Of a stretch of DNA of 61,407 bases, positions 23,809 to 59,384 are shown one piece after another. Positions within the stretch are counted from its first letter, which is position 1. Each line of letters opens with the position of its first letter. The position numbers were made by a program, and so were the translations under genes. Below the pieces are notes generated by a model. It had not been told where the DNA came from. It searched no databases and was given only the letters and a program-made list of their open reading frames with translations. Location of the stretch: the NCBI GenBank assembly GCA_902609285.1, contig CACLRL010000006.1:1-61407 (forward strand), in the 5' to 3' direction. Source of the DNA: an uncultured Candidatus Actinomarina sp. (GTDB taxonomy: Bacteria > Actinomycetota > Acidimicrobiia > Actinomarinales > Actinomarinaceae).

Positions 23809-23811
23809 CAA

Positions 23812-40711: not shown

Positions 40712-40720
40712 ATTCTTTTC

Positions 40721-40744: not shown

Positions 40745-40803
40745 AAATTATAATTTTTACATTATTCAATTTTTGAATATACGTATATTAAGAAAGGGAG
40801 TGT

Positions 40804-42105: not shown

Positions 42106-42125
42106 TTAGATAAAAAATTATTTTG

Positions 42126-42156
42126 ATCGGGGCTCGCAATGGGCCCCGATTTTTTT
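42126..42156 (+). terminator. Intrinsic terminator/attenuator between malE and malF
   Basis: 10-bp stem atcggggctc-gcaat-gggccccgat followed by a T run. Confidence 0.85.
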
Positions 42157-42173
42157 GTGATATATTTATGTAT

Positions 42174-44619: not shown

Positions 44620-45284
44620 GTAAGAAAGCATTATTTATCGCTGGAGGATGGGGCGGTCATGAGCCAATAGAAACCTCAAAATTTATTATCCAAGAAATAA
44701 AAAAATTTGATATTGAAAGTGATTTAGTTGAAAGTTTAGATGTTATGAGTGATTTAAAATATTTAAAAAAATATGATGTCATTTTACCAGTATGGACAAT
44801 GGGAAATATAGATGATGACAATTGGGAAATTAAAGACTCAAAAATTGGAAACTTGCAAGAAGCTATAAGCTCTGGAATAGGATTAGCTGGCTGGCATGGC
44901 GGAATGACAGATGCTTTTAGAGATAACACAAACTATCAGTTTCTTGTTGGGAGCCAATTCGTTTGCCATCCAGGCAATTTTGTTGATTATGAGGTCGCCA
45001 TTATTGATAAAGATCATCAAAGTGTCGATGGAATTGATAATTTTAGTGTTCACTCAGAACAATATTTTTTACATATTGATCCATCAATAAATGTAATTGC
45101 CTCAACAAAATTTAATAAGAAATACCACGACTGGATTGATGGTGTAGAAATGCCAATTGCATACACAAAAAAATGGGGAAAAGGAAAAGTATTTCATTGT
45201 TCAATAGGGCATTACCTCAAAGATTTTGAAAATTTAAATGTTGTTAAATTAATTACTCAGGGAATCAACTGGGCTACAAAATAA
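44616..45284 (+). CDS. ThuA-like domain protein
   Basis: GGWGGHEP, GLAGWHGGM.DAFR, QFVCHPG, SEQYFLH, WGKGKVFHCSIGH; ATGA overlap with malG. Confidence 0.85.
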   Translation: MSKKALFIAGGWGGHEPIETSKFIIQEIKKFDIESDLVESLDVMSDLKYLKKYDVILPVWTMGNIDDDNWEIKDSKIGNLQEAISSGIGLAGWHGGMTDAFRDNTNYQFLVGSQFVCHPGNFVDYEVAIIDKDHQSVDGIDNFSVHSEQYFLHIDPSINVIASTKFNKKYHDWIDGVEMPIAYTKKWGKGKVFHCSIGHYLKDFENLNVVKLITQGINWATK

Positions 45285-45285
45285 T

Positions 45286-46332
45286 ATGAACATAGGAATA
45301 ATTGGATGCGGTGCAATTTCAGATCAATATATGATTGGTTTGAACAAGGATAAAGAAATTTTAAAAGTTGTTGCTTGTGCAGATGTAGATTCTAACAAGT
45401 CAGAAGTATTCTCTAAAAAACACAAAATTGATAAGTTATCTGTCGAGGAAATATTTGTTGATAATGATATTGATCTTATTGTAAATCTAACACCTCCATC
45501 CTCTCATTTTGAGATTTCAATGAAATCTCTTAAAAATGGAAAACATGTCTTTTCTGAAAAACCCGTCTCTTTATCAATAAACGAAGGGGAAAAATTATAT
45601 GCAACAATGAAAGAAAATAATGTTTATTTATTTTCTGCCCCTGACACATATCTGGGACCAGCATTCAAAAAAGGGACTGAGTTGGTAAATTCTAATCAGA
45701 TTGGACAAATTATTGGTGGGTCAGCTAGTTTTGTTACTCATGGTGTAGAGGGGTGGCATCCTAATCCTGAATTTTATTATAAGAAAGGGGGAGGGCCTTT
45801 ATTCGACATGGGTCCATATTATTTAACTGCTTTGGTAAAACTACTTGGCCCTGTAACTCAAGTTATCTCTTACTCAAAAAAGAATTTCAATAAGCGTCTT
45901 GTAGACAATCCAGAAGTAAAATATGAGGAAATCGAAGTAGAGATTGATACCCATTATGTTTCATTATTAAAATTCAAATCTGGAGTTGTTGTCGACTTCC
46001 AGGTTAGTTTTGATATATGGAAACCATATGATGGAAAATTGGAAATATATGGGGAAAACTCATCTTTAAAATTTGCAGATCCAAACAACTACGATGGTGA
46101 AATTTCTATTTTTAATAAAGAAACTTATCAATGGGAAAACATATATTCGTCAAAAGACAGTGAAAATAATTACTACAGAGGCTTAGGTGTTGTTGAAATG
46201 GTAAATTCTATAAAAGAAAATAATGTATCTGAGGATGACCTATTTTTACCATTTCATGTATTAAATATTATGTGTACTTTAGAGTCTTATGATTTTGATG
46301 GAAATTGGGCAAATATTACTCAACAATTTTAA
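45286..46332 (+). CDS. Gfo/Idh/MocA oxidoreductase
   Basis: IGIIGCGAIS, KHVFSEKP, APDT, WHPNPEFYY..GGGPLFDMGPYY. Confidence 0.92.
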   Translation: MNIGIIGCGAISDQYMIGLNKDKEILKVVACADVDSNKSEVFSKKHKIDKLSVEEIFVDNDIDLIVNLTPPSSHFEISMKSLKNGKHVFSEKPVSLSINEGEKLYATMKENNVYLFSAPDTYLGPAFKKGTELVNSNQIGQIIGGSASFVTHGVEGWHPNPEFYYKKGGGPLFDMGPYYLTALVKLLGPVTQVISYSKKNFNKRLVDNPEVKYEEIEVEIDTHYVSLLKFKSGVVVDFQVSFDIWKPYDGKLEIYGENSSLKFADPNNYDGEISIFNKETYQWENIYSSKDSENNYYRGLGVVEMVNSIKENNVSEDDLFLPFHVLNIMCTLESYDFDGNWANITQQF

Positions 46333-46393: not shown

Positions 46394-48325
46394 ATGAGCA
46401 AAATACAAGAATTCCTAAAAAACCAAGAAAAATCAGTTATGAGTATTGTTGAAGGTAAAACAATTATTGATTATTTAAACAATAATGCAGAAGAGTCACC
46501 TGATTACCCTGCTTTAAATACCCCAATCAATAATGAATATACAGGATGGGATTCTATTTCTTGGTCAGAATATCAAGAAACAGTTCACAATCTTGCTTCA
46601 GGACTTATTGATATTGGTCTACAAGCTGAAGACAATGCTTTTATTGTTGCAAATAATGTAAAAGAGCATTTTATTTCAGATCTTGGAATCATGCATGCAG
46701 GTGCAGTTCCCTCTACAATCTATAAACAACTTAAATCAGGACAAATCGAATACATCTCCAATCTACTTGAAGCAAAAGTAGCTTTTGTTGGTGATGCAGA
46801 GCTATTTACTGAAGTCAATAAAGCAAAAGATAATTGTCCAGATATGAAGTACATCATAATGATTGAAGATTTTGATCAATATAAAGATTTAGATTACGTG
46901 TTAAGTTATCAAGATCTTATTGAAAAGGGTAAAAAAATTAATGCAGAAAGTAAATCAGAATTAGAAGCAAGAATGGAATCTGTAAAACCAGATTCACTTG
47001 CATGTTTAATTTTTACATCAGGGACAACTGGAAATCCTAAGGGCGTTATGCTTACCCATGAGAATATATTATTTACCATTCAGAGCTTGATAGAGCAATC
47101 GGTAAGTTTAGGAACTAATCCTAGAATTGTTTCTTATTTACCTATGGCCCATATTGCAGCAAGATTAACAGATCATTATCAATCAATTTTTAGAAAAGGT
47201 CAATTATTTCCAGTCCCAGTTCTTGAGGACATGGCTACAGCCCTACCAACTATTAAACCAACTCTCTTTTTCGCAGTTCCTCGGGTTTGGGAAAGATTTC
47301 AATCAGGTTTAATTAATAAAATAAACGAATCAGATAAAAAAGATTTGGCTTTAAGAGCCATTGATAATGGATTAGAAAGAGTTGAATATGAGCAAAGAGG
47401 TGAGACACCACCTTTAGGAATAAGAATTAAAGATGCAATATTTAACAAGCTTGTTTTTGAACGATCATTTAAAGTTGGGTTGGGTCTTGATAATTCTGAA
47501 GTATTCATTACTGCCGCAGCACCTATGAATCCAGAGGTTCAAAAATGGTTTCATGCAATTCATATTGATGTCGCAGAAGTATATGGAATGACAGAAGATA
47601 CAGGACCTGCAACATTTTGTGTTCCAAATTTTGCAAATAATTACTTCCAAAATCTTATGAGAGCCAATGATTTACCTATTCCAGATGTAATGAATCCAAT
47701 TGGTAAAGTTGGTATGCCTATTATGGGTACAGAAATAAAAGTTCTAGATGATGGTGAGTTGTGCATCAAAGGTAAACACGTTGCAAAAGGATATTATAAA
47801 GCAGAAGAAGAAACAAAAGCTGCATTTGATAATGATGGATGGCTTCATACAGGAGATTTAGCCGAGATTGACGAAAACGGTTTTGCAAAAATAATTGGAA
47901 GAAAAAAGGAAATTATTATTACTTCTGGTGGCAAAAACATTGCACCTGTTGAATTAGAAAATCTAATTAAGACACATGAGTTAATAGGCCAAATTTGCAT
48001 GGTAGGAGATGGAAAGAAATTTTTAAGTGCTTTAATTGTTCTTGATGGCGATGGTGGTGCTGAAAAATGGGCTAATGAAAATGGAGTTGATTACAACATT
48101 GAAACTATGTCAAAAAACGAAAAAGTCTTATCAGCTATACAAGAGCATGTTGATCAGTCAAATAGTAAAGTTGCAAATGTTCAACAAATTAAAAAATTTA
48201 CCCTACTGTCAAGTGAATGGACTGATAGTAGTGGCGAGTTAACACCATCTCTCAAATTAAAAAGACATGTTGTTGCGGAGAGATATGAAAACGAAATTGA
48301 AGCAATGTATGAGGAGGCAAAATAA
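46394..48325 (+). CDS. Long-chain fatty acid--CoA ligase (AMP-forming)
   Basis: IFTSGTTGNPKG, YLPMAH, VPRVWE, YGMTE, WLHTGD, GRKKEIIITSGGKN, ELTPSLKLKR. Confidence 0.93.
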   Translation: MSKIQEFLKNQEKSVMSIVEGKTIIDYLNNNAEESPDYPALNTPINNEYTGWDSISWSEYQETVHNLASGLIDIGLQAEDNAFIVANNVKEHFISDLGIMHAGAVPSTIYKQLKSGQIEYISNLLEAKVAFVGDAELFTEVNKAKDNCPDMKYIIMIEDFDQYKDLDYVLSYQDLIEKGKKINAESKSELEARMESVKPDSLACLIFTSGTTGNPKGVMLTHENILFTIQSLIEQSVSLGTNPRIVSYLPMAHIAARLTDHYQSIFRKGQLFPVPVLEDMATALPTIKPTLFFAVPRVWERFQSGLINKINESDKKDLALRAIDNGLERVEYEQRGETPPLGIRIKDAIFNKLVFERSFKVGLGLDNSEVFITAAAPMNPEVQKWFHAIHIDVAEVYGMTEDTGPATFCVPNFANNYFQNLMRANDLPIPDVMNPIGKVGMPIMGTEIKVLDDGELCIKGKHVAKGYYKAEEETKAAFDNDGWLHTGDLAEIDENGFAKIIGRKKEIIITSGGKNIAPVELENLIKTHELIGQICMVGDGKKFLSALIVLDGDGGAEKWANENGVDYNIETMSKNEKVLSAIQEHVDQSNSKVANVQQIKKFTLLSSEWTDSSGELTPSLKLKRHVVAERYENEIEAMYEEAK

Positions 48326-49227
48326 TGGCTGATGTTAGTTTCGAAAATAGAGTTGTAATTGTTACTGGAGCTGGAAATGGACTTGGAAAAGCTTATGCCT
48401 TAGAACTTGGAAAAAGAGGTGCAAAAGTTGTTGTTAATGACTTGGGTGGTGCTGTTGATGGTTCTGGATCTGGTAATTCTCCTGCTGATGATGTTGTAAA
48501 TGAAATTATCGAAAATGGTGGAGAAGCAGTGGCAAACTATGATTCGGTAGCAACTAAAGATGGTGGAGAGTCAATTGTCCAGACCGCAGTTGATAGTTTC
48601 GGTACTGTAGATGCTGTTATTAACAATGCAGGAATTCTAAGAGATAAGAGTTTTGCAAATATGACTGAAGAAGAATTTTCATTAATTATAGAAGTTCATT
48701 TGAAAGGAACATATTTCGTAACACAACCTGCATTTAAGATTATGAAAGAGAATAATTATGGAAGAATTGTAAATGTTGCATCACCATCGGGCATTTTTGG
48801 TAATTTTGGCCAAACAAATTATGGAGCAGCAAAGATGGGAATTGTTGGATTAACAAATGTCTTAGCTATTGAAGGTGCAAAATATAATATTAAAGTTAAC
48901 GTTATAGCACCTACTGCATATACAAGAATGACAGAAGCTCTTCTTCCAGAAGATGTGGGAAAACTTTTTAGCGCAGAACTTGTTACTCCAATGGTTACAT
49001 ATCTAGCATCTGAAGCTTGCGAACCAACACATGAAATTTTTGGTGTTGCAGCTGGCAGATTTGCAAGAATCGGCATTATTACACATGAAGGATATGTAAA
49101 TACAGAAGCTACCGCAGAAGACATTGCAAGCAATATTGAGGAAATTAGAACAATTACAGATGGTTCTTATCCTTTAAGCAATGAAGATGAGCTCATGCTT
49201 ATACAAAAAGCTATTCAGGGAAATTAG
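48325..49227 (+). CDS. SDR, MFE-2-like (R)-3-hydroxyacyl-CoA dehydrogenase type
   Basis: VTGAGNGLG, VVVNDLGG, NNAGILRD, GNFGQTNYGAAK. Confidence 0.88.
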   Translation: MADVSFENRVVIVTGAGNGLGKAYALELGKRGAKVVVNDLGGAVDGSGSGNSPADDVVNEIIENGGEAVANYDSVATKDGGESIVQTAVDSFGTVDAVINNAGILRDKSFANMTEEEFSLIIEVHLKGTYFVTQPAFKIMKENNYGRIVNVASPSGIFGNFGQTNYGAAKMGIVGLTNVLAIEGAKYNIKVNVIAPTAYTRMTEALLPEDVGKLFSAELVTPMVTYLASEACEPTHEIFGVAAGRFARIGIITHEGYVNTEATAEDIASNIEEIRTITDGSYPLSNEDELMLIQKAIQGN

Positions 49228-49257: not shown

Positions 49258-50475
49258 ATGGTAAAAACTGAGACTAAACCATTAGATTCTGAGGAATTAG
49301 TTTTAAACAGATTACAAGAATTAGTTGATTTTCGAAAAGATGATCAAGACATTAAAGAATTTTGGGCAAAGCAATTTGATTTAGGACTTGCTTGGGTTCA
49401 TTTTCCTGAAGGTGCAGGAGGATTAAACGTTAATCCAAAATATCAATTATTAGTTAATGAAACTCTTCGAAAAGAAGGTATCTCAACAAATAATCGCATT
49501 GCTAATCTTCTTGGAATTGGCATGGGAGCGCCAACTATTACTGAATATGGAACTCAAGAACAAATCGATAAGTATTTAAAACCGATGTTTACAGCAGAAG
49601 AAATTTGGTGTCAATTGTTCTCTGAGCCAGGATCAGGTTCCGATTTAGCTAGTTTGTCAACAAAAGCAGTGGACGATGGTGACGGGTATATAGTAAATGG
49701 ACAAAAAGTTTGGACAACATTAGGACATCTTTCAAAATGGGGATTATTAGTTACAAGAACTGATCCAGATGTTCCAAAGCATAGAGGACTAACATTTTTT
49801 ATCGTTGATATGGAATCTGAAGGTGTCGAAGTAAGACCTTTAAGACAAATAACTGGTGAAGCAGAATTTAACGAAGTTTATTTTACGGATGTAAAAATTC
49901 CTAAAGAGAATGTTCTTGGAGAAGTAGGTGATGGATGGCGAGTCTCTCTAGCAATTTTAATGAATGAAAGAGTTGCTATTGGAGGAAATGTAAGACCAAG
50001 AGGAAGTGGTGCACCAGGACATTTAGTTCAATTATGGAAAGATCGCGAACTAGATGATCCCGTTACGAAAGATAAACTTATGGAATTATGGATACAACAA
50101 GAAGCTGTAAGGTTAACCAATTTGAGAGCATCTGAACTTAGAGAAAAAGGAACACCTGGTCCAGAGGGTTCGACAAGCAAACTTCATGAAGCTGAAATAA
50201 ATAAGGCATCCTACGCTTTTGGTATGGAAATGTTAGGAAATGATGGATTATTATTCCCAAGAGGATATGAGCTATCTCAACCTGAATTAAATTTTGATAA
50301 TGATTCTTACGGTTTTACAGATACACAAAGTTTATTTTTAAGATCCCGAGCAAACTCTATTGAAGGCGGCACATCAGAAATCATGAGAAACATTATTGCA
50401 GAAAGAGTTTTAGGTCTTCCAAGCGAACCAAAATTAGATAAAGATAAAGCTTGGAAAGATTTGCCAAGATCTTAA
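49258..50475 (+). CDS. Acyl-CoA dehydrogenase (FadE-like)
   Basis: WCQLFSEPGSGSDLA, NGQKVWT, FNEVYF, IEGGTSEIMRNIIAERVLGLP. Confidence 0.93.
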   Translation: MVKTETKPLDSEELVLNRLQELVDFRKDDQDIKEFWAKQFDLGLAWVHFPEGAGGLNVNPKYQLLVNETLRKEGISTNNRIANLLGIGMGAPTITEYGTQEQIDKYLKPMFTAEEIWCQLFSEPGSGSDLASLSTKAVDDGDGYIVNGQKVWTTLGHLSKWGLLVTRTDPDVPKHRGLTFFIVDMESEGVEVRPLRQITGEAEFNEVYFTDVKIPKENVLGEVGDGWRVSLAILMNERVAIGGNVRPRGSGAPGHLVQLWKDRELDDPVTKDKLMELWIQQEAVRLTNLRASELREKGTPGPEGSTSKLHEAEINKASYAFGMEMLGNDGLLFPRGYELSQPELNFDNDSYGFTDTQSLFLRSRANSIEGGTSEIMRNIIAERVLGLPSEPKLDKDKAWKDLPRS

Positions 50476-51112: not shown

Positions 51113-52294
51113 TTATTTAATAATCGGCATTGAAGTGTTCATTGCATTTTTTAATGCATTTAAAACTAAAGCTTTTTCATTTGCTTGAGAAAACACAAAA
51201 CCTAAGTATTTATCACCAAAAGGTGGTTCTAACAAATCTGAGTTCTCGAAAACAGTTATTTCAACTGCCGATACATTATCAATGTTTTCCAATTCATCTT
51301 GATTAATAGAAACAAATTTACCTGTTTGAGGAGTTGGAAGCATGAGTACGCCAACATAATTACTAAGGAGTTCAACAGGTTTTAATTCATCATATAAAAA
51401 GGCATGTAATGTAATTTCTTCAAGAGATACTTTAAACAAGCCAAAACTTAGACATTTTGAACAAAGGCCACCTATCATTCTTGGATTAATTTCAATAATG
51501 AAAATATTTTCATCAAGTATTTTAAATTCAACATGTACAGGCCCATTCTCAAGACCAATTTTTTTACAAGCATCATCAACTAATTCAACTATTTCATTTT
51601 GTAATTTTTCAGATAGTTCACTTGGGGTTATATAGATTGACTCTTCAAAGTAAGGTTCTTTGTATTCAATTGGCTTATCGAAAATTGTTATTTTATTTAA
51701 ATTAGAATTTATTAAGTTACCTTCTAATGCATATTCTTTACCATCTATATGTTGCTCGATAACCATTTCCCGATCTTCACAATCGTTCATTAAATTAATT
51801 ATGTAGTCTTTGTTTTTATTAAAATTATCTATTTTTAAAACACTTTTGCTTGCTGATCCAAAATTTGGTTTTAAAACTGATGTACCATGTTTTTCCACAA
51901 ACATTGCAATATCTTCAAGACTTTTTATAACCATATTTTCTGCTTTTATATTCGATATTAAATTAAAAGTATTTCTTGAATTAAACTTATTCATTGAATG
52001 CTCTATGGCAAATAATTTATTTCCTTTAGCATCTAATAAATCAACTAGATAACCAGCAAATTTTAATGCACTATGGTCAACTGGAAGTACGTGAGTTATT
52101 TTATTAAGTTTTATTAATGTTTCATTGCTTATTTTTTCAGTAAAATTTTGAATAATTACAGTATCACCAAATTGACTTGATACTTGATCGCTGTCTGTAA
52201 TTACCAAAAAATCGATACCTAATCTTTCTGCAGTTTGTACAAAATCATTGGATTTATAGCTATTTTCTGGGATTACTAACAATAGTTTATTCAT
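51113..52294 (-). CDS. ATP-grasp domain protein (L-amino-acid ligase-like)
   Basis: VLKP..GSASKSV, EQHIDGKEY, GPVHVEF, IEINPRMIGG. Confidence 0.85.
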   Translation of the reverse strand: MNKLLLVIPENSYKSNDFVQTAERLGIDFLVITDSDQVSSQFGDTVIIQNFTEKISNETLIKLNKITHVLPVDHSALKFAGYLVDLLDAKGNKLFAIEHSMNKFNSRNTFNLISNIKAENMVIKSLEDIAMFVEKHGTSVLKPNFGSASKSVLKIDNFNKNKDYIINLMNDCEDREMVIEQHIDGKEYALEGNLINSNLNKITIFDKPIEYKEPYFEESIYITPSELSEKLQNEIVELVDDACKKIGLENGPVHVEFKILDENIFIIEINPRMIGGLCSKCLSFGLFKVSLEEITLHAFLYDELKPVELLSNYVGVLMLPTPQTGKFVSINQDELENIDNVSAVEITVFENSDLLEPPFGDKYLGFVFSQANEKALVLNALKNAMNTSMPIIK

Positions 52295-52334: not shown

Positions 52335-52967
52335 ATGACTGATGAGTTTAAATTCAATATTGGAGACAGTGCTGTTAGTAAGATTCTTGAGTTAAAAGAA
52401 CAAGAACCTGGAGATAAAGATTATGCTCTATTTTTACAGATTGACGGTGTACAAGGAAATCAATATACATATGATCTTAGTTTTTTAGATCTTGAACAAG
52501 CTAGACCAGATGATAAACGAGTTGATTTTGGTGATTTATCTGTAATTATAGCCAGTAAAGATGTTGATAACTTTAATGGTGCAGTATTAGAAATATCTGA
52601 TGATCCAAATGCACCAGGACTCACAATGGACAACCCAAATACTCCAAGTCCTTCAATGGTAGGTAACCCTGAAGATTTACCTGAACTTACTGGTGAACTT
52701 GCAGAGAAGGTACAAACAGTTCTTGAAAGCCAAATTAATCCAGCAATAGCATCTCACGGAGGAAAGGCATCTTTAGTTGGTATTGAAGGTCAAGATGTTT
52801 ATCTTAGACTTGGTGGGGGCTGTCAAGGATGTGGAATGGCTCAAGTAACACTTACTCAAGGAATAGAAACAGCTTTACGAGATGCTGTACCTGAAATAGG
52901 AAATATTATTGATGCAACTGATCACGCTTCAGGAAATAATCCGTATTTCGAATCGTCTAAAAAATAA
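52335..52967 (+). CDS. nfuA: Fe-S biogenesis protein NfuA (degenerate ATC domain plus Nfu domain)
   Basis: INPAIASHGG, GGGCQGCGMA, TL.QGIE, DATDH..G.NPY. Confidence 0.9.
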   Translation: MTDEFKFNIGDSAVSKILELKEQEPGDKDYALFLQIDGVQGNQYTYDLSFLDLEQARPDDKRVDFGDLSVIIASKDVDNFNGAVLEISDDPNAPGLTMDNPNTPSPSMVGNPEDLPELTGELAEKVQTVLESQINPAIASHGGKASLVGIEGQDVYLRLGGGCQGCGMAQVTLTQGIETALRDAVPEIGNIIDATDHASGNNPYFESSKK

Positions 52968-53942
52968 TTAAAAACTGATTACTGTTTTCCCAATATTTTT
53001 TCTAGATAGAAAGTTTTCAAGTGCTAAAGAAGTCTCTTCTATTGGATGAATATTTTTTGGTTGTATCACTAGTTTATCCTTTTCAATAAATTCAATTAAT
53101 TCTTTAAAGTCTTCAGCTGTCTCTTCAGGAGAGGTTGTAGTCCATCTTCCCCACCAAACTCCAACTATTGAGACTCCCTTAACAAGAGTTAAATTTAATG
53201 GAATTTTTGGTATGTTGCCATCTGTAAAACCTATTACAAGCAATCTTCCATTCCATGCTGTTGCTCTCAATGCTTGTTCTGTTACATCTCCTCCAACAGG
53301 ATCCATAACAACATCTACTCCTTTTCCATCAGTAAGTTCTTTTACTGTTTCCTTCAGTTCAACTTGATCATATCTAATAATTTCATCTGCCCCCAATGAC
53401 TTAACATATTCTGCTTTTTCATCACTGCCAACTGCACATATAGTTTTGACTCCCATTATTTTCGCTAATTGTATCGTCGCCGTCCCTATACCCCCTGACG
53501 CACCAAGAACAAGAAGAGACTCATTCTTTTGAATATTTGCTCTTCTTTTGAGTGCGTAATAACAAGTTCCATAATTTATAGGCAAGCTTGCCCCAGCCAT
53601 TGAATCGACTTTTTTTGATACAGGTATAACAAGATTCTTATCTACAGAAACATATTCAGAAAAACCTCCTATTGGCGGCAAAGCTATTACTTTGCTCCCA
53701 ATCTTAAGATCAACATCATCTCCAGTTTCTTCAACATATCCACAAACTTCATTACCAGGAGTAAAAGGTGGGTCCATTACTATTTGATATTTACCTTGAA
53801 CCATTAAAGCATCTGGAAAATTCACACCTGCTGCTTGTACTTTTACTAGTACTTCATTTTTACTTGGCTTTGGTGTTTCAATATCTTTTATCTCAAGTAG
53901 ATTAGGATCACCTATTTTTGTACAAACAACAGCTTTCATCAA
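52968..53942 (-). CDS. NADPH:quinone oxidoreductase-like MDR protein
   Basis: AAGVNFPD, PPFTPG.E, LGASGGIG, GVDVVMDPVGG, GRLLVIGF; no Zn-ligand pattern. Confidence 0.9.
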   Translation of the reverse strand: MMKAVVCTKIGDPNLLEIKDIETPKPSKNEVLVKVQAAGVNFPDALMVQGKYQIVMDPPFTPGNEVCGYVEETGDDVDLKIGSKVIALPPIGGFSEYVSVDKNLVIPVSKKVDSMAGASLPINYGTCYYALKRRANIQKNESLLVLGASGGIGTATIQLAKIMGVKTICAVGSDEKAEYVKSLGADEIIRYDQVELKETVKELTDGKGVDVVMDPVGGDVTEQALRATAWNGRLLVIGFTDGNIPKIPLNLTLVKGVSIVGVWWGRWTTTSPEETAEDFKELIEFIEKDKLVIQPKNIHPIEETSLALENFLSRKNIGKTVISF

Positions 53943-55393
53943 TCTTCTCTTTCGATTATTCCAGAGAGCTTCTTTGCAAAGTTTTTCTTTTCTTCAATAT
54001 CTACTTTTCTAGAAATTTGTATTCTTTGAGCTTGTGGTGATCCAGCACCATGCATTGATTCAGTTAAATAAGCAACAGCATTTCTTCCTAATGTCATATT
54101 TTCAATAAGTCGTAACATGCTTACACGATCTTCGGTATTTATATCTTCTTTGCCTTTCAAGTATTTCAATAAGTTTGGTGACATCTCACTTTCATTTATG
54201 TCAATACCTGAAGGCATGGATGCAACTAGTCCACCAGCTAAATCTTGTGCCAACCTTCCTATCTCATAAGTTTCTTTTGTAACATGCTGTTTGCAGACAT
54301 TTGCTAATAAATCGTCATTTATATAATTTCCACTCTTTGTTTTTTTTCCTTGCAAAGATGAAGCAATTCCCGTCGCATAAATAGTTTCATTTAATTTATT
54401 CATTTCAATTAATTTTTCTTTAATATGTGATTTATCTTCAACACCGTTATATTCGGCAATACTTGCTGCCGCCCCTATCATTACATCCCCAACACCTGAT
54501 TTACATACATACGATCTTCGATGATAACATGTAAATCTTTCGACAAGCATTGCAGCAAAATCATATTCACCATTCATAAATATAAATTCGTTTGGAATGA
54601 ACACATTATCAAAAATAACCATTGCTTCTTGACCAGCAAAATATTTATTTCCAACATCATATTCACCTGGCTCCATACTTCTGGTGTCACAGGATTGTCG
54701 TCCATAGATGTACGTAATACCTTCTGTCTCAATAGGCAACGCTCCTACAATTGCATAATCTTTATCATTTTCAGTAAGCCTTAAAGTTGGCATAACAACC
54801 ATCCAATGAGAATTTATACATCCTGTTTGATGAGCTTTAGCTCCTGAGACATAAACACCATTATCATCTCTATTAACAACTCTCAAATATAAATCTTGAT
54901 CCGCTTGTTGGTGAGGAGGTTTTGATCTATCACCTTTAACATCAGTCATAGCTCCACCAATCACAAAATTACCCTCATGCATTTTTGTTAAAAAATTGAT
55001 AAATTTGTCATGGTAATTTGTTTTATATTTTTCATCAATCTCATAGGTCACTGAATGAAGGGCATTGAATGCATCCATTCCCACACATCTTTGGAAACAC
55101 GTACCAGTTAACTGACCAAGTTTCCTTTGCATTTCATTTTGCATAAATAAATCTTCACTGCTGTTCGCAATATGTAAAAATCGATTAATTGGCTCATTTG
55201 TATAAGGTGAAATAGTTGTAGCCAAATCAGGGTCTCTATCTGCTAATGCATAAGTTTCAGCCATAGCTTCAATACTTGGTTTGATAATTGGATGAGTGAG
55301 AGGATCTTTTACTAGTTCACCCATGAGATAGATAGTTAGATTTCTATTTTTCAGAGAGTTAATATAATCTTGTTTTGTACGAATTTTGTTCAT
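53939..55393 (-). CDS. abfD: 4-hydroxybutyryl-CoA dehydratase/vinylacetyl-CoA isomerase ([4Fe-4S]/FAD)
   Basis: Cluster ligands TCFQRCVGMD and YHRRSYVCK, GAMTDVKGDRS, GAKAHQTG, YGRQSCDTR, TESMHGAGSPQAQ. Confidence 0.92.
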   Translation of the reverse strand: MNKIRTKQDYINSLKNRNLTIYLMGELVKDPLTHPIIKPSIEAMAETYALADRDPDLATTISPYTNEPINRFLHIANSSEDLFMQNEMQRKLGQLTGTCFQRCVGMDAFNALHSVTYEIDEKYKTNYHDKFINFLTKMHEGNFVIGGAMTDVKGDRSKPPHQQADQDLYLRVVNRDDNGVYVSGAKAHQTGCINSHWMVVMPTLRLTENDKDYAIVGALPIETEGITYIYGRQSCDTRSMEPGEYDVGNKYFAGQEAMVIFDNVFIPNEFIFMNGEYDFAAMLVERFTCYHRRSYVCKSGVGDVMIGAAASIAEYNGVEDKSHIKEKLIEMNKLNETIYATGIASSLQGKKTKSGNYINDDLLANVCKQHVTKETYEIGRLAQDLAGGLVASMPSGIDINESEMSPNLLKYLKGKEDINTEDRVSMLRLIENMTLGRNAVAYLTESMHGAGSPQAQRIQISRKVDIEEKKNFAKKLSGIIERED

Positions 55394-55447
55394 ACATCAT
55401 TATAAATTGTAAGTTTGTGATTTAAAATCTAGTTAGAAATTTATAAT

Positions 55448-56626
55448 TTAAATAACTTCAAATAACCCTGCTGCACCCATGCCACCGCCAACACACATAG
55501 TTACAACAACGAATTTTGCGTTTCTTCTCTTACCTTCCATTAATGCGTGCATTGTCATTCTTGCACCAGTCATTCCATATGGATGGCCTATTGAGATTGA
55601 GCCGCCATTGACATTGTAAATACTGTTATCGATACCAAGTTCGTCTCTACAGTATAAAGTTTGAACAGCAAACGCTTCATTTAGCTCCCAAAGGTCTATA
55701 TCTTCAATTTTCAAATTGAATTTATTCAATAAATCTGGAACCGCATACACAGGACCTATTCCCATTTCCTCAGGTGCTAATGCTGATACAGTCATACCTC
55801 TGTAATATCCAAGTGGTTCTAGGCTTCTTTTTTCTGCTTCGCTAGCTTCCATTAGGACAACTGAAGCTGAGCCATCTGATAATTGAGAGGCATTGCCGGC
55901 TGTGATAAACTTTCCTTCTCCGTAAACCGGAGGAAGTGAAGATAAACCGTCTAAATTTGTCTCTGGTCTATTTCCCTCATCTTTTGTTAATTCAACCTCT
56001 TGGTCAGAAACTTCACCAGTTTCTTTATTTTTGACACTCTTAGTTGTAGTTGTTGAAATAATCTCATCATCAAACTTGTTACTTTCTTGAGCTGCTGCAG
56101 TTCTTTGTTGACTTTGTAGGGAATATTCATCTTGATATTCTCTCGAAATATTATATTTTTCAGCAACAAAATCAGCAGTTTCAATCATGGGCATGTAAGC
56201 GTTATCGGCAAGTTTTACAACATTTGGGTCTGGAGCAAATCTCAATTCAGCAGTTTGAACTAATGATATAGATTCGACACCACCAGCAACAACAACATTC
56301 ATATTGTCTGTCATTATTTGTTTCGCACCGGTAGCGATGGCCATCAGGCCGGAAGAACATTGTCTATCTATAGTCATTCCCGGGACTGTAATTGGTAATC
56401 CTGCTGCAATTCCACTCAGTCTTCCAATGTTTAATGCTTGCGACCCTTGTTGTTGAGCACATCCCATAATGACATCTTCAATCTCATTAGGATCAACTTT
56501 TGCTCTTTCGACTGCTTCTTTAATTGAATAAGAACCTAATGTTGGAGCGTCTGTTTTGTTATAAGCTCCACGATAAGCTTTTCCTATAGGTGTTCTTGCT
56601 GCTGATACAATTACTGCTTCTCTCAT
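55448..56626 (-). CDS. Acetyl-CoA C-acyltransferase (thiolase)
   Basis: [33 protein letters not shown]. Confidence 0.95.
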
Positions 56627-56643
56627 TTTTATTATTCTTTCTT

Positions 56644-57105
56644 TTATTCTGTAACTATAAATAAAGTTAAAGGCTCAGCAATTGCTGCTGGTTTATCCTT
56701 ACCTTCTATTTCAATTGTAGCAGTATGTTTTACTAACCATCTACCAGCTTTTTTGTATTGAACATCTGACAAAACAAATCTTCCTCTTATTTTACTATTT
56801 ACAGGGACAGCTTCCATGAAACGAACCTTATCAAGACCATAATTTATTGCCATTTGTATATTTTCTGGCATAACAGTTTTGTCGACTGATAAGAAAGTCA
56901 CCATACTCAACGTCAAGAATCCATGAGCTATTGTAGATCCCCATGGAGTACTTTTAGCCATTTCTTCATCAACATGAATAAACTGATGATCGTTAGTACC
57001 TTCAGCAAACTGATTAATTCTTTCTTGATTTATTTCAAACCAGTCTGAAACACCAACTTCCTTACCGATATATTTTTCCATTTCTTCTGCAGGTACAATC
57101 GTCAT
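56644..57105 (-). CDS. MaoC-like (R)-specific enoyl-CoA hydratase
   Basis: [32 protein letters not shown]. Confidence 0.9.
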
Positions 57106-58118
57106 ATTATCTCCTCTAATAAATTTTCATTTGCAGCTTTGTTTGCAAACTTTATTGTACTGTTCTTAAATGATTCTATTTCATTTTCATTTGTTTTTCC
57201 ATACGATCCCATTGAATACCTGATATAAACTCCTTCCATTATCATTGCATGTTTCCAAAAAGATAATCTTGCGTAAAATTCAATATCACTTAAATCTAGA
57301 TCTGAATTATTTAAATACAAAGCTATTACATCCTTACGTGTTGGAAATCCTTCAGATAGGGTAGGAGAATAAATAAAAGGTGAGTCTTTCTCCTGTTTTG
57401 TATTCCAAGATGCTATTACTGTACCCATATCTGCAAGTGGATCTCCTAGAGTACAAAGTTCCCAATCCAGAACGGCAGCTACTTGATTATCCTTTACTCG
57501 TACATTATCTAATCTGTAATCTCCATGAACTATTCCAACAGTTTGTTGAGAGGGAATATTATCTAGTAATAATTTTGTAGCAATTTCTAATTCTTTTATT
57601 TCTCTAACTTTTTGAGATTGAAATTGTTTATTCCATCTATTTATTTGACGCTCAACATATTCCTCATGTTTTCCTAAATCATTTAATTCTGAACTTATCA
57701 CGTCAAAATTGTGTATTTCAGAAAGAGCTTTAATAAATGATTTCGTAATTGTATTTTTTTGAATTTCATTAAATTCATCAGCTATTTGGTTATTTGCTAT
57801 GGTCTCACCCTCAATAAATTCCATAATATAAAAATCATCTACGGATAATTCTTTCTTATTGTATAAATACATAGGTTTTGGGACCCTTAAGCCATTTTCA
57901 CTTAGAACTTTTAATATTTTGTATTCCCTGCCCATATTGTGTGCAGATTCTAACTTAAGTCCAAATGGAGGTCTTCTCAATACAAATGAGTTTGCATCAT
58001 CAAAAATTTTGAATGTAATATTTGATCTTCCTACGTTAAACTGTTCAAAGTTAAAATCTTCTGAAATGTTTATAACTGAAGAGATATATTTTTTAAGTTT
58101 TTCACTAAAAAAGTCCAT
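57102..58118 (-). CDS. APH-family phosphotransferase (LvaA / ACAD10-11 kinase-like)
   Basis: GRSNIT, VLRRPP, SAHNMGRE, FYIMEF, VHGDYRLDN, VLDWELCTLGDPLAD. Confidence 0.9.
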   Translation of the reverse strand: MDFFSEKLKKYISSVINISEDFNFEQFNVGRSNITFKIFDDANSFVLRRPPFGLKLESAHNMGREYKILKVLSENGLRVPKPMYLYNKKELSVDDFYIMEFIEGETIANNQIADEFNEIQKNTITKSFIKALSEIHNFDVISSELNDLGKHEEYVERQINRWNKQFQSQKVREIKELEIATKLLLDNIPSQQTVGIVHGDYRLDNVRVKDNQVAAVLDWELCTLGDPLADMGTVIASWNTKQEKDSPFIYSPTLSEGFPTRKDVIALYLNNSDLDLSDIEFYARLSFWKHAMIMEGVYIRYSMGSYGKTNENEIESFKNSTIKFANKAANENLLEEII

Positions 58119-58175
58119 TTAAGAACATATTAATGAAAGTTTTTTGGTTCAGTTGTTTAAATTGATACAATAAGA

Positions 58176-59384
58176 ATGATGGATTTTAATTTTTCTAAAG
58201 AATCACTTGAATTACAGGATAAGCTAAAAACTTTTTTCGTAGATCATATTTATCCGAATGAAGACCATTACGAGAACGCAATTATTGACTCTGGTGATCC
58301 ATTGCATATTCCAGAAATCCTAAGTGAACTCAAATCAAAAGCTAAAAAGGAAAATTTATGGAATTTATTTCTCCCTGATAACGAATATGGATATGGGTTA
58401 TCAAATGTTGATTATGCACCATTGGCTGAGATAACCGGTCATAATTGGTGGGCTCCAGAGGTATTTAATTGTTCTGCACCTGATACAGGAAATATGGAAA
58501 TTTTAGCTGAGTTTGGAACATCAGAACAAAAAAAACAATGGCTTGAACCACTTCTTGAAGGAGAAATAAGATCATGCTTTGCAATGACCGAACCAAATGT
58601 GGCTTCCTCTGATGCTACCAATATAGGAAGTTCAATTGTCAGTGACGGAGATAATTATGTCATCAATGGTCGAAAGTGGTGGACTTCAAATGCTATAAAT
58701 CCAAATGCAAAAATATGTATTTTTATGGGTGTTACTAACCCTGATAGCCCTCCATATCAAAGGCAAAGTCAGGTATTAGTACCAATGGATAGCGAAGGAC
58801 TTTCAATAATCAGACCAATGCAAGTATTTGGATATGACGATGGATACACAGGACACCCAGAGCTTTTATTTGAAAATGTTGTTGTTCCAAAATCCAACAT
58901 CATTGGGGGAGAAGGAATGGGATTTAAAATAGCTCAAGCAAGACTTGGACCTGGAAGAATACACCATTGCATGAGGGCTATAGGAATGGCAGAGAGAGCG
59001 TTATCTCTTATGATTGATCGCTCACTTGAAAGAGAAACATTTGGTCAAAAATTGGCTGAACAGGGCGTTATTCAAGATTGGATTGCTCGTTCAAGAATAA
59101 AAATTGAAGAAGCAAGGCTACTAACATTAAAAACTGCTTGGCTTATTGATACTGTTGGTAAAGAAGAAGCAAAAATTGAAATTTCATCTATAAAAGTATC
59201 TGTTGTTGAAGCAGCTTCCTATGTAATTGATAAAGCCATACAGACTCATGGTGCAATGGGGCTATCCCAAGACACTCCGTTGGCAAGAATGTCTGCTGGT
59301 GCTCGCGTATTAAGAATTGCAGATGGACCTGATGAAGTTCATTTGAGATCAATTGCGAAAAGAGAAATTAATAAACATAGGTAG
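58176..59384 (+). CDS. Acyl-CoA dehydrogenase, LvaC/ACAD10-11-type
   Basis: LWNLFLP, APEVFNCSAPDTGNMEIL, AMTEP.VASSDATN, AQARLGPGRIHHCMR, RIADGPDEVH. Confidence 0.92.
   Translation: MMDFNFSKESLELQDKLKTFFVDHIYPNEDHYENAIIDSGDPLHIPEILSELKSKAKKENLWNLFLPDNEYGYGLSNVDYAPLAEITGHNWWAPEVFNCSAPDTGNMEILAEFGTSEQKKQWLEPLLEGEIRSCFAMTEPNVASSDATNIGSSIVSDGDNYVINGRKWWTSNAINPNAKICIFMGVTNPDSPPYQRQSQVLVPMDSEGLSIIRPMQVFGYDDGYTGHPELLFENVVVPKSNIIGGEGMGFKIAQARLGPGRIHHCMRAIGMAERALSLMIDRSLERETFGQKLAEQGVIQDWIARSRIKIEEARLLTLKTAWLIDTVGKEEAKIEISSIKVSVVEAASYVIDKAIQTHGAMGLSQDTPLARMSAGARVLRIADGPDEVHLRSIAKREINKHR

What the first reader, a model, noticed from the sequence alone, without database searches (positions are those of the whole stretch)
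53939..55393. Thaumarchaeal-like 4-hydroxybutyryl-CoA dehydratase in a bacterium
Seen: all four expected cluster ligands (CFQRC, H in YHRRS, C in VCK). Stretches such as NRFLHIA, MQRKLGQ.TGTCFQRCVGMDA, GAKAHQTGCINSHW, VERFTCYHRRSYVCK and RLIENMTLGRNAV.YLTESMHGAGSPQAQRIQI match the Nitrosopumilus enzyme as I recall it better than clostridial AbfD (YHRQSYGGCK). Known: this enzyme is the marker of the 3HP/4HB carbon-fixation cycle in marine ammonia-oxidising archaea and is comparatively O2-tolerant. Inference: inter-domain transfer or a bacterial sister clade used catabolically, so environmental hcd counts may include heterotrophic actinobacteria. Nothing in the window shows autotrophy.
Basis: partly seen in the sequence, partly recalled or inferred. 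Interest (0 to 1): 0.8.

Follow-up and report, generated by a model that had tools for sequence, protein, structure and literature searches.

The report
Oxygen-tolerant-type 4-hydroxybutyryl-CoA dehydratase in Actinomarina
A small marine surface-water actinobacterium carries a real copy of the enzyme used as the marker of carbon fixation in ammonia-oxidising archaea, but here it sits among fatty-acid breakdown genes and most likely serves to digest 4-hydroxy acids, so gene counts based on this marker can mislead.

Summary
ORF 53939-55393(-) encodes a 484-aa 4-hydroxybutyryl-CoA dehydratase (4HBD). It scores 722 bits to the N. maritimus enzyme (6VJR), 545 to clostridial AbfD and about 100 or less to HpaB hydroxylases. 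All cluster ligands, catalytic residues and the four published tunnel-closing (O2-tolerance) residues are present.

The genome is Ca. Actinomarina-like. The gene is not a chimera: 42 Actinomarinales loci share the synteny, and contigs from independent metagenomes bridge both gene ends.

The protein belongs to a large, mostly bacterial clade that also holds the thaumarchaeal enzymes. It is 68-73% identical to other bacteria and 63-68% to thaumarchaeal sequences. Actinomarinaceae and Thaumarchaeota are each monophyletic (100/100), so recent transfer between them is excluded. An ancient sister relation is not rejected (AU p 0.45).

Autotrophy is not supported. No methylmalonyl-CoA mutase (0/27 congeners) and no ADP-forming ligases were found, and three congeners lack exactly this gene from an otherwise intact operon.

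The context is a beta-oxidation island with a split ACAD11/LvaAC-type 4-hydroxyacyl-CoA kinase/lyase pair, which points to a catabolic role. Thaumarchaeal hcd PCR primers would not amplify the gene, but annotation-based (K14534) counts would include it.

The parts
53939..55393 (-). [quoted passage not shown]
52968..53942 (-). Zn-independent MDR oxidoreductase of the quinone-oxidoreductase / zeta-crystallin type. Its ATG overlaps the 4HBD stop codon (TGATG), so the two are probably translationally coupled
55448..56626 (-). acetyl-CoA C-acyltransferase (thiolase), 54 nt upstream of 4HBD on the same strand
56644..57105 (-). MaoC-type (R)-specific enoyl-CoA hydratase
57102..58118 (-). APH-family kinase homologous to the N-terminal kinase domain of ACAD11 (LvaA-like 4-hydroxyacyl-CoA kinase candidate)
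58176..59384 (+). ACAD11/LvaC-type acyl-CoA dehydrogenase-fold protein with the R...HCMR motif and an Asp at the catalytic position (4-phosphoacyl-CoA lyase candidate)
   Evidence: motif as described in PMC12440821
59387..60253 (+). 3-hydroxyacyl-CoA dehydrogenase
46394..48325 (+). AMP-forming acyl-CoA synthetase, one of only two found in the genome, syntenic with the island. Candidate activator of 4-hydroxy acids (inferred)
48325..49227 (+). short-chain dehydrogenase/reductase, syntenic with the island
49258..50475 (+). second acyl-CoA dehydrogenase, syntenic with the island
52335..52967 (+). NfuA-type Fe-S cluster carrier, conserved next to the operon in Actinomarinales. Any link to maturation of the 4HBD cluster is speculative

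Best explanation
The ORF encodes a functional [4Fe-4S]/FAD 4-hydroxybutyryl-CoA dehydratase of the same subfamily as the oxygen-tolerant N. maritimus enzyme. It is a chromosomal gene of Ca. Actinomarina in the operon thiolase-4HBD-QOR. That operon lies in a conserved island of acyl-CoA metabolism: an acyl-CoA synthetase, an SDR, two ACADs, a MaoC hydratase, a 3-hydroxyacyl-CoA dehydrogenase, and a split ACAD11/LvaAC-type kinase + lyase pair. Shown here: the gene's identity, its residues, its clade, its synteny and the lack of the other cycle genes. Inferred: it works catabolically under oxic conditions. A 4-hydroxy acid would be activated to its CoA ester. 4HBD would dehydrate 4-hydroxybutyryl-CoA to crotonyl-CoA, while the kinase/lyase pair would do the equivalent job for longer 4-hydroxyacyl-CoAs. 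MaoC hydratase, dehydrogenase and thiolase would then yield acetyl-CoA. In evolutionary terms it is one lineage of a broad, mainly bacterial clade in which the tunnel-closing residues are universal and to which the thaumarchaeal enzymes also belong. It is not a recent import from ammonia-oxidising archaea and not part of a CO2-fixation cycle.
For: Identity. 722 bits to 6vjr_A against 545 to 1u8v_A. Ligands C99/C103/H291/C297 and catalytic T190/E256/Y295/E445 are conserved. The tunnel residues L73/T98/R437/N438 match Nmar L77/T102/R441/N442 as defined in bioRxiv 10.1101/2020.02.05.935528. They are present in 42/42 Actinomarinales, 38/38 other named bacteria, 69/69 thaumarchaeal-type rows and 11/11 further Acidimicrobiia, but not in the clostridial-type set of 116.

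Clade. The aerobic-type clade has 100/100 support against the clostridial type, and Actinomarinaceae are 100/100.

Not a chimera. The order MDR-4HBD-thiolase-MaoC-APH-ACAD-HADH is kept in the 42 Actinomarinales loci as far as each contig reaches, including contigs of about 1 Mb. Contigs of independent marine metagenomes bridge both gene ends.

Context. The ACAD scores 440 bits to ACAD11 against 141 to short-chain ACAD and carries R...HCMR plus Asp. The APH kinase scores 142 bits to the ACAD11 kinase domain. ACAD10/11 and LvaA/LvaC phosphorylate 4-hydroxyacyl-CoAs and eliminate the phosphate (PMC12440821, passages read).

No autotrophy. Methylmalonyl-CoA mutase was found in 0/27 genomes of the genus, and NF045493 over its cut-off in 0/27. 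NF045492 was not found in G000.

Dispensable. 51/63 congeners have the gene. In G089, G061 and G085 the island is intact with thiolase directly next to the MDR gene (gaps of 54, 23 and 51 nt).
Against: No activity, cofactor content or oxygen stability was measured. No dedicated 4-hydroxybutyrate-activating enzyme was identified: no AbfT-type, family I or family III CoA-transferase and no ADP-forming ligase were found in a genome that is only 79% complete. The role given to the AMP-forming ligase is therefore a guess. No source of 4-hydroxybutyrate is evident either: no Fe-ADH and no class-III aminotransferase were found. The island is not conserved around the homologs of other bacteria. Only a MaoC gene recurs, in 8 of the 38 loci L043-L080, and there is no synteny in 11 other Acidimicrobiia loci. 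The contigs from RNA libraries do not prove transcription. The deep branching order is unresolved.
Confidence: 0.75

Rival explanations
1. Direct inter-domain transfer: Actinomarinaceae obtained the gene from ammonia-oxidising Thaumarchaeota, or the reverse, so the two are each other's closest relatives.
For: Both belong to the same 100/100 clade and share all four tunnel residues. A tree that holds Actinomarinales and the thaumarchaeal rows together is only 1.02 log-likelihood units worse, p-AU 0.446. Both groups are abundant marine plankton with about 33% G+C.
Against: Each group is monophyletic at 100/100, so neither is nested in the other. Window identity to thaumarchaeal rows is 62.8-68.0%, lower than to other bacteria at 67.6-72.9%. 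In the 57-row tree the thaumarchaeal clade lies outside a 31-row bacterial group (92/87) that contains Actinomarinaceae. Actinomarinales lack the C-terminal extension that the thaumarchaeal enzymes have. The thaumarchaeal partner gene, the 4HB-CoA ligase, sits next to hcd in 61 of 69 thaumarchaeal loci and is absent from all 42 Actinomarinales loci.
Confidence: 0.1
2. The enzyme is part of an autotrophic 3HP/4HB or DC/4HB cycle in Actinomarina, as has been proposed for other bacteria that carry this key enzyme.
For: The gene is the accepted key enzyme of these cycles. Thiolase, a hydratase, a 3-hydroxyacyl-CoA dehydrogenase and one acyl-CoA carboxyltransferase are present. PNAS Nexus 2022 (PMC9802188, section 10 read) proposes HP/HB in Luminiphilus on similar grounds.
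Against: Methylmalonyl-CoA mutase was found in 0/27 genomes of the genus (0/12 of those at least 90% complete). ADP-forming 4HB-CoA ligase over its cut-off was found in 0/27. No 3HP-CoA ligase was found in G000. The gene is cleanly missing from three congeners whose island is otherwise intact. The neighbours are catabolic.
Confidence: 0.03
3. The protein is a true 4HBD homolog, but its physiological job differs from 4-hydroxybutyrate catabolism. It might act as a vinylacetyl-CoA isomerase, dehydrate another 4-hydroxyacyl-CoA, or run in the hydration direction.
For: The enzyme family is bifunctional (6vjr is deposited as vinylacetyl-CoA delta-isomerase). No 4-hydroxybutyrate-forming or 4-hydroxybutyrate-activating gene was identified. 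A parallel kinase/lyase route for 4-hydroxyacyl-CoAs lies in the same island, which raises the question of why both are kept.
Against: All catalytic and substrate-side residues named for the N. maritimus enzyme are conserved, at about 66% overall identity. The downstream enzymes for crotonyl-CoA are encoded next door.
Confidence: 0.12
4. Artefact: the contig is a chimera or is contaminated with thaumarchaeal DNA, or the ORF is an HpaB-type flavin monooxygenase.
For: The genome is fragmented (37 contigs). Pfam names the domains after HpaB.
Against: The synteny is the same in 42 independent assemblies. DNA contigs X6 record 25 and X1 records 2, 4 and 5 cover the junctions. Contamination is estimated at 0%. 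HpaB structures score at most 100 bits against 722 for 4HBD, and the Fe-S ligands are present.
Confidence: 0.01

Closest known systems
N. maritimus 4-hydroxybutyryl-CoA dehydratase Nmar_0207 (PDB 6VJR)
   Same: Same subfamily clade (100/100). About 66% identity, measured with L160 as stand-in (L160 scores 1105 bits to 6vjr_A; L160 against 42 Actinomarinales rows is 64.8-67.8%). Same ligands, catalytic residues and all four tunnel-closing residues.
   Different: The Actinomarina protein lacks the roughly 20-residue C-terminal extension: 33 residues after SPQAQ against 53. It is not paired with the ADP-forming 4HB-CoA ligase. It sits in a beta-oxidation island of a heterotrophic bacterium, and it is dispensable within the genus.
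Aerobic-type 4HBDs of other bacteria (Saprospiraceae, Planctomycetaceae, Anaerolineae, Woeseiaceae and other Gammaproteobacteria, Pyrinomonadaceae, other Acidimicrobiia)
   Same: These are the nearest relatives outside Actinomarinales (67.6-72.9% identity). They share the tunnel residues and the clade.
   Different: Most carry the C-terminal extension (median 52-56 residues after SPQAQ). Their gene neighbourhoods differ; only a MaoC gene recurs, in 8 of 38 loci. None of them has been characterised biochemically as far as my searches show.
Clostridium aminobutyricum AbfD (PDB 1U8V) and clostridial-type relatives (P0122 group, named Chloroflexi/Anaerolineae)
   Same: Same fold, ligands and catalytic residues. 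545 bits to 1u8v, and 52.6% identity to P0122.
   Different: They form a separate 100/100 clade. Three of the four tunnel positions carry other residues in all 116 clostridial-type rows, and the fourth (T102) is Thr in only 96 of 116. The partner genes of GABA fermentation (AbfT-type transferase, Fe-ADH) were not found in G000.
P. putida LvaA/LvaC and mammalian ACAD10/ACAD11 (4-hydroxyacyl-CoA kinase + phospho-lyase). This applies to the neighbouring genes, not to the ORF itself
   Same: The neighbouring ACAD scores 440 bits to ACAD11 and has the R...HCMR motif and the catalytic Asp. The neighbouring APH kinase matches the ACAD11 kinase domain.
   Different: Here the two parts are separate, divergently transcribed genes, as in the bacterial lva operon and unlike the fused mammalian proteins. 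I found no report that places them beside a 4HBD.

Membership tests
4-hydroxybutyryl-CoA dehydratase (AbfD/4HBD), N. maritimus-type subclade | Full-length HpaB_N + HpaB_C architecture, with the best solved relatives being 4HBDs and not HpaB monooxygenases | tested here: met
   Pfam 299 + 216 bits. 722 and 545 bits to 6vjr and 1u8v against at most 100 bits to HpaB structures.
4-hydroxybutyryl-CoA dehydratase (AbfD/4HBD), N. maritimus-type subclade | [4Fe-4S] ligands: Cys-x3-Cys, His and a third Cys | tested here: met
   C99, C103, H291 and C297, aligned to Nmar C103/C107/H295/C301.
4-hydroxybutyryl-CoA dehydratase (AbfD/4HBD), N. maritimus-type subclade | Catalytic residues named for the Nmar enzyme (T194, E260, Y299, E449) | tested here: met
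   T190, E256, Y295 and E445. Residue names come from bioRxiv 10.1101/2020.02.05.935528.
4-hydroxybutyryl-CoA dehydratase (AbfD/4HBD), N. maritimus-type subclade | Tunnel-closing residues L77, T102, R441 and N442 | tested here: met
   L73, T98, R437 and N438, present in 42/42 Actinomarinales rows.
4-hydroxybutyryl-CoA dehydratase (AbfD/4HBD), N. maritimus-type subclade | Falls in the clade with the N. maritimus enzyme, separate from the clostridial type | tested here: met
   100/100 support in two careful trees.
4-hydroxybutyryl-CoA dehydratase (AbfD/4HBD), N. maritimus-type subclade | C-terminal extension of about 20 residues, described for the Nmar enzyme | tested here: not met
   33 residues after SPQAQ against a median of 53 in thaumarchaeal rows. 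This is a clade-variable trait and not a catalytic one: other Acidimicrobiia also lack it.
4-hydroxybutyryl-CoA dehydratase (AbfD/4HBD), N. maritimus-type subclade | Dehydratase/isomerase activity and oxygen tolerance | not testable with these tools
   Needs the recombinant enzyme.
Thaumarchaeal 3HP/4HB CO2-fixation cycle | ADP-forming 4-hydroxybutyrate-CoA ligase (NF045493) and 3-hydroxypropionate-CoA ligase (NF045492) | tested here: not met
   The best NF045493 hit is 39.7 bits against a cut-off of 1300 in G000. Over the cut-off in 0/27 genomes of the genus. NF045492 has no hit in G000.
Thaumarchaeal 3HP/4HB CO2-fixation cycle | Methylmalonyl-CoA mutase | tested here: not met
   PF01642 was found in 0/27 genomes of the genus, and in 0/12 of those at least 90% complete.
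Thaumarchaeal 3HP/4HB CO2-fixation cycle | Acetyl-CoA/propionyl-CoA carboxylase | tested here: inconclusive
   There is one carboxyltransferase hit (575 bits). This enzyme is also common in heterotrophs.
Clostridial 4-aminobutyrate fermentation (AbfD with AbfT and AbfH) | AbfT-type 4HB CoA-transferase (PF02550) and Fe-ADH 4HB dehydrogenase (PF00465) | tested here: not met
   No hit in G000, which is 79% complete.
LvaA/LvaC - ACAD10/11 4-hydroxyacyl-CoA kinase/lyase (neighbour genes 57102-59384) | ACAD with the R...HCMR motif and a catalytic Asp, plus an APH-type kinase homologous to the ACAD11 N-terminal domain | tested here: met
   Motif definition from PMC12440821. Activity was not tested.

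The most novel reading that the evidence does not exclude
Oxygen tolerance of 4HBD would be an invention of aerobic bacteria, not of archaea. The four tunnel-closing residues are universal in a large bacterial clade: Acidimicrobiia, Bacteroidota, Gammaproteobacteria, Planctomycetota, Chloroflexota and Acidobacteriota. The thaumarchaeal clade nests inside that clade when it is rooted on the clostridial type (97/81 branch). On this reading, ammonia-oxidising archaea imported a ready-made oxygen-tolerant enzyme. In the sunlit ocean Actinomarina would use the same radical enzyme, beside a kinase/lyase route, as the final step in breaking down omega-hydroxy and 4-hydroxy acids from photo-oxidised or algal lipids. 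That would make 4-hydroxy acids an unrecognised carbon source for one of the most streamlined surface bacteria.
Probability: 0.3. Interest if true: 0.65.

Novelty: new member of a known kind. Interest (0 to 1): 0.45.

Why it matters
abfD/hcd (KEGG K14534) is widely read as the key gene of archaeal 3HP/4HB carbon fixation. One surface-ocean metagenome study lists abfD as a 'relatively abundant' CO2-fixation marker (PMC8005183). Another paper infers bacterial HP/HB autotrophy from the same key enzyme (PMC9802188). Ca. Actinomarina lives in the epipelagic zone (PMC7771536, title and abstract start seen in a search listing, passages seen in a find), where thaumarchaea are scarce (that scarcity is recalled, not from a call). 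Its copy would therefore be counted as autotrophy potential although the genome lacks the rest of the cycle. The clade also gives many natural, probably oxygen-tolerant 4HBD variants for enzymology and pathway engineering. It moves the question of where oxygen tolerance arose from archaea to bacteria.

Tried and rejected
- Naming a genus as the centre for the genome search gave an error. I did not pursue it.
- The search for homologous proteins with the window protein returned only Actinomarina-type sequences. With P0121 it returned only gammaproteobacterial-type sequences. Neither gave thaumarchaeal references.
- I obtained thaumarchaeal references with a back-translated motif scan of metagenome contigs. 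This samples only sequences that carry DVENRMRILRLIENM, so thaumarchaeal diversity is under-sampled.
- The 50%-identity representatives proved poor outgroups: branch lengths of 2.7-4.4 and a long-branch warning. I replaced them with clostridial-type relatives of P0122.
- I looked for a universal neighbour of bacterial 4HBDs and found none. The largest cluster, MaoC, covers 8 of 38 loci.
- AU test of vertical descent: holding Actinomarinaceae with the other Acidimicrobiia is 20.97 log-likelihood units worse, but p is 0.158, so it is not rejected. I named this group only after seeing the tree.
- RNA-library contigs cover 25 of 30 bins in X15 and in X17. The uncovered bins and the depth figures are not evidence of anything, and DNA carry-over cannot be excluded.
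- One paper search failed on term format.
- I did not run structure or complex prediction.
- Supplements of the cited papers were closed. Table S1 of PMC9802188 and the supplementary tables of PMC7771536 may already list this gene for Actinomarinales.
Full report
**Observation.** The window holds an ORF at 53939-55393 on the minus strand (ATG start, 484 aa). Pfam finds HpaB_N (299 bits) and HpaB (216 bits) across the full length. NCBIfam's HpaB equivalogs score far below their cut-offs: 143 against 480, and 92 against 885. Against all PDB chains the best match is 6vjr_A, the N. maritimus 4-hydroxybutyryl-CoA dehydratase (722 bits, E 2e-216, residues 4-480). Next is 1u8v_A, C. aminobutyricum AbfD (545 bits). 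True HpaB monooxygenases reach at most 100 bits.

**Host.** G+C is 30-38% throughout the window. The window is contig C6 of a 928-kb assembly of 37 contigs, 79% complete and 0% contaminated. A scan of one genome per prokaryotic species found 159 relatives and kept 80. Of these, 42 (L001-L042) are 80-100% identical and lie in records titled Ca. Actinomarina, Ca. Actinomarinales, OCS155 cluster, Actinomycetota or Acidimicrobiaceae. Some of these contigs are about 0.9-1.0 Mb long. The other 38 (L043-L080) are 68-73% identical and come from Saprospiraceae, Microscillaceae, Spirosomataceae, Planctomycetaceae, Anaerolineae, Woeseiaceae and other Gammaproteobacteria, Pyrinomonadaceae, Hydrogenedentota and Deferribacteres.

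**Not a chimera.**
- tblastn of 14 window proteins against the loci shows the same order and spacing in the 42 Actinomarinales loci as far as each contig reaches: MDR at +1.2 kb, thiolase at -1.4 kb, MaoC at -2.2, APH at -2.9, ACAD at -4.1 and HADH at -5.1/-5.2 kb (with the upstream genes shifted by 0.5-1.2 kb in L018, L021 and L023). Divergence of 4HBD (80-83% in the more distant species) is similar to that of thiolase (80-83%) and the ACAD (79-84%).
- The 4.3-kb stretch 52900-57200 is held at 0.81-0.89 of its sampled words in 14 marine DNA runs from 5 studies, and at 0.21-0.66 in 6 RNA-library runs.
- Laid contigs bridge the 4HBD/MDR junction: X6 record 25 (52900-54217), X1 record 2, and X17 record 18.
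- Laid contigs also bridge the thiolase/4HBD junction: X15 record 12 (54869-56323), X1 records 4 and 5, X6 record 28, and X17 record 22.
- The RNA-library contigs are compatible with expression but do not prove it.

**Residues.** I had no thaumarchaeal sequence in hand, so I scanned metagenome contigs for the back-translated motif DVENRMRILRLIENM. This gave 119 loci, 104 with an hcd ORF and 69 of them full length. Their thaumarchaeal identity rests on three checks:
- The L160 ORF scores 1105 bits to 6vjr_A over 502 residues.
- Its upstream neighbour passes the equivalog cut-off for 4-hydroxybutyrate-CoA ligase (1398 against 1300 bits), and an archaeal-type signal peptidase follows.
- 61 of the 69 full-length loci carry that ligase at 72-100% identity, against 0 of 42 Actinomarinales loci.

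In a 455-row alignment numbered through L160, the window protein has these residues:
- ligands C99, C103, H291 and C297;
- catalytic residues T190, E256, Y295 and E445;
- L73, T98, R437 and N438 at the four positions that DeMirci et al. (bioRxiv 10.1101/2020.02.05.935528; passages read) identify as closing the two tunnels behind the cluster in the oxygen-tolerant enzyme (Nmar L77, T102, R441, N442 against clostridial A73, S98, A447, S448).

These four residues are present in 42/42 Actinomarinales rows, 38/38 other named bacteria, 69/69 thaumarchaeal rows, 11/11 further Acidimicrobiia and 114-120 of 120 gammaproteobacterial-type rows. The 116 clostridial-type rows have T/C, mostly T, T/A/S and A/G/S at those positions.

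One difference stands out. Actinomarinales have 33 residues after the SPQAQ motif, against a median of 53 in thaumarchaeal and 52-56 in most other aerobic-type enzymes. They therefore lack the C-terminal extension. The other Acidimicrobiia lack it too.

**Phylogeny.**
- BLASTP identity of the window protein is 80-99.6% to Actinomarinales (n=41), 67.6-72.9% to other named bacteria (n=38), 64.2-70.9% to P0121-like sequences named Gammaproteobacteria/Woeseiaceae (n=120), 62.8-68.0% to thaumarchaeal rows (n=69) and 52.6% to the clostridial-type P0122.
- The thaumarchaeal L160 is itself closer to gammaproteobacterial-type sequences (up to 74.6%) than to Actinomarinales (64.8-67.8%).
- A careful IQ-TREE of 56 rows, rooted on eight clostridial-type sequences, gives 100/100 for the aerobic-type clade, for Actinomarinales and for the thaumarchaeal rows. 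The last two sit in a 40-row polytomy (90/90) with Planctomycetota, Bacteroidota, Chloroflexota, Pseudomonadota, Acidobacteriota and others.
- I then added ten homologs from other Acidimicrobiia families and one from a second genus of the same family, found in a class-wide search. This gave a 57-row tree. The other Acidimicrobiia form a 98/98 clade sister to everything else (97/81). Thaumarchaeota stay at 100/100. Actinomarinaceae (100/100) lie inside a 31-row bacterial group (92/87).
- AU tests reject neither Actinomarinales + Thaumarchaeota (delta lnL 1.02, p 0.446) nor Actinomarinaceae + other Acidimicrobiia (delta lnL 20.97, p 0.158, a group I named after seeing the tree).

What is shown: the protein is of the N. 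maritimus type, and neither group is nested in the other. What is not resolved: who is sister to whom. Two caveats apply. The thaumarchaeal rows were selected by one motif, and the root depends on one outgroup clade with a 0.74-0.79 stem.

**Function.**
- The 4HBD stop overlaps the ATG of a Zn-independent quinone-oxidoreductase-type MDR gene (TGATG). A thiolase ends 54 nt upstream.
- Further upstream on the same strand lie a MaoC hydratase and an APH-family kinase. Divergently transcribed are an acyl-CoA dehydrogenase-fold gene and a 3-hydroxyacyl-CoA dehydrogenase.
- That ACAD is not an ordinary one. It scores 440 bits to mouse ACAD11 against 141 to short-chain ACAD. In the alignment it carries the R...HCMR motif, and the catalytic position reads IADGPDEVHL, with Asp.
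- The kinase scores 142 bits to the ACAD11 kinase domain.
- According to Rashan et al. (PMC12440821; passages read), ACAD10/11 and the bacterial LvaA/LvaC phosphorylate 4-hydroxyacyl-CoAs and eliminate the phosphate to give 2-enoyl-CoAs. The HCMR motif, the upstream Arg and the Asp are specific to this group.
- The island therefore encodes two ways of turning a 4-hydroxyacyl-CoA into an enoyl-CoA, followed by hydratase, dehydrogenase and thiolase.
- It also holds an AMP-forming acyl-CoA synthetase (one of only two in the genome), an SDR and a second ACAD. All three are syntenic across Actinomarinales.

I infer a catabolic role. 4HBD would handle the C4 case, for example 4-hydroxybutyrate itself or the C4 remnant left when even-chain omega-hydroxy acids are shortened by beta-oxidation. 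The kinase/lyase pair would handle longer chains. The substrate source and the activating enzyme are not shown. No AbfT-type, family I or family III CoA-transferase, no Fe-ADH and no class-III aminotransferase was found in this 79%-complete genome.

**Autotrophy.**
- The ADP-forming 4-hydroxybutyrate-CoA ligase is not present. The best hit is 39.7 bits against a cut-off of 1300 in G000, and none of 27 genomes of the genus passes the cut-off (26 of them at least 85% complete, plus G000).
- The 3-hydroxypropionate-CoA ligase was not found in G000.
- Methylmalonyl-CoA mutase was found in 0 of 27 genomes, and in 0 of the 12 that are at least 90% complete.
- The one carboxyltransferase hit is not diagnostic.

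**Dispensability.** In the class-wide search 51 of 63 congeners have the gene. Outside the family only a few families do (f10 6/9, f23 3/3, f15 1/7; 64 of 301 genomes and 10 of 136 genera in all, G000 included). In three congeners without it (G089, a single 1.0-Mb contig; G061; G085) the whole island is intact, and the thiolase gene lies 54, 23 and 51 nt from the MDR gene. G061's neighbour genes are 72-95% identical to the window's, with thiolase, MaoC, ACAD and NfuA at 90-95%. Since closer and more distant lineages both keep the gene, loss in that lineage is the simpler reading. A clean single-gene presence/absence in an operon fits an accessory catabolic step, not a central carbon-fixation pathway.

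**Marker-gene consequence.** The thaumarchaeal hcd primers of Offre et al., as printed in Tolar et al. (PMC3620491), behave as follows:
- hcd-465F matches with 1 mismatch.
- hcd-911F has 6 mismatches and hcd-1267R has 10 at the homologous sites. Neither matches anywhere in the window within 3 mismatches.
- As a control, thaumarchaeal L160 has 0, 3 and 0 mismatches.

PCR counts are therefore unlikely to include Actinomarina. Annotation-based counts would include it. Sources already name the close relatives '4-hydroxybutyryl-CoA dehydratase'. One surface-water metagenome paper reports abfD as a relatively abundant CO2-fixation marker (PMC8005183, passages read). The Malaspina study uses K14534 as the key gene for AOA MAGs (PMC8139981). 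I could not examine the sequences of either study.

**Comparison with what is known.** Bacterial homologs of the N. maritimus type are not new.
- DeMirci et al. mention Plesiocystis pacifica and state that bacteria contributed 4HBD to Thaumarchaeota.
- Garritano et al. used the N. maritimus enzyme as the key and proposed HP/HB in Luminiphilus and some Rhizobiales (PMC9802188, section 10 read).
- No paper in the searched library holds both '4-hydroxybutyryl-CoA dehydratase' and 'Actinomarina'.
- The main text of the Actinomarinales genome paper (PMC7771536) has no occurrence of 'hydroxybutyr', 'fatty acid' or 'acyl-CoA'.

Within the reach of these searches, the new points are:
- the gene's near-core status in Actinomarinaceae;
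- its place beside an LvaAC/ACAD11-type pair;
- the clean indel polymorphism within the genus;
- the fact that the four oxygen-tolerance residues are universal in the bacterial clade.

**Verdict.** This is a genuine and well-supported gene, and an ordinary member of a known enzyme family in an unexpected but explicable setting. It is useful as a caution for marker-gene ecology and as a lead for 4-hydroxy acid catabolism in streamlined plankton. It is not evidence of inter-domain transfer into Actinomarina, and not evidence of bacterial autotrophy.

Noticed in passing
window 51113-52294: The ATP-grasp gene between the thiamine pyrophosphokinase gene and NfuA is present in only part of the Actinomarinales loci (L001-L013, L028, L034, L036, L038, L039). 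It is missing from most others, where the TPK gene moves from +3.9 kb to +2.7 kb. This is a second indel polymorphism in the same island.
   Followed up: no
L203 1505-3577 and L205 1102-3279: In another Acidimicrobiia family (f23) a full-length ADP-forming acyl-CoA ligase lies about 1.8 kb from the 4HBD gene, with a DNA polymerase IV gene in between. Its best NCBIfam hit is the thaumarchaeal 4-hydroxybutyrate-CoA ligase model (585 bits, below the 1300 cut-off; 37% identity to L160's ligase). This is a bacterial echo of the thaumarchaeal gene pair.
   Followed up: partly
L046, L055, L056, L062, L075, L079 (about +3 kb from 4HBD, same strand): A gene of the HMG-CoA reductase family recurs downstream of 4HBD in six Bacteroidota and Acidobacteriota loci. 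In eight Saprospiraceae-type loci a MaoC gene, and in five loci an SDR, precede 4HBD.
   Followed up: no
P0121 and P0271-P0389: A large set of 4HBDs that sources name Gammaproteobacteria or Woeseiaceae is up to 74.6% identical to the thaumarchaeal L160. They share a C-terminal extension ending in a Y(M/F/L)xRVF-like motif, so they are closer to the archaeal enzymes than Actinomarina is.
   Followed up: partly
window 52335-52967: An NfuA-type Fe-S cluster carrier abuts the 3' end of the 4HBD-QOR operon on the opposite strand. It stays there in the Actinomarinales loci that reach it (39 of 42), and also in the three genomes that lack 4HBD.
   Followed up: no
window 23658-23885: A tight cluster of three tRNA genes: Glu(TTC), Gln(CTG) and Glu(CTC).
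   Followed up: no
window 39440-46332: A sugar-uptake cluster: alpha-amylase-family gene, ABC solute-binding protein, two permeases, ThuA and a GFO/IDH/MocA oxidoreductase. The ORFs 43753-44619 and 44505-45284 overlap by 115 nt as listed.
   Followed up: no
literature (PMC9802188, section 10): Bacterial 'HP/HB cycle' calls that rest on the N. maritimus 4HBD as key enzyme (Luminiphilus, Pseudolabrys, Methyloceanibacter) may deserve the same context check as here. 4HBDs of this clade occur in many heterotrophic bacteria.
   Followed up: no
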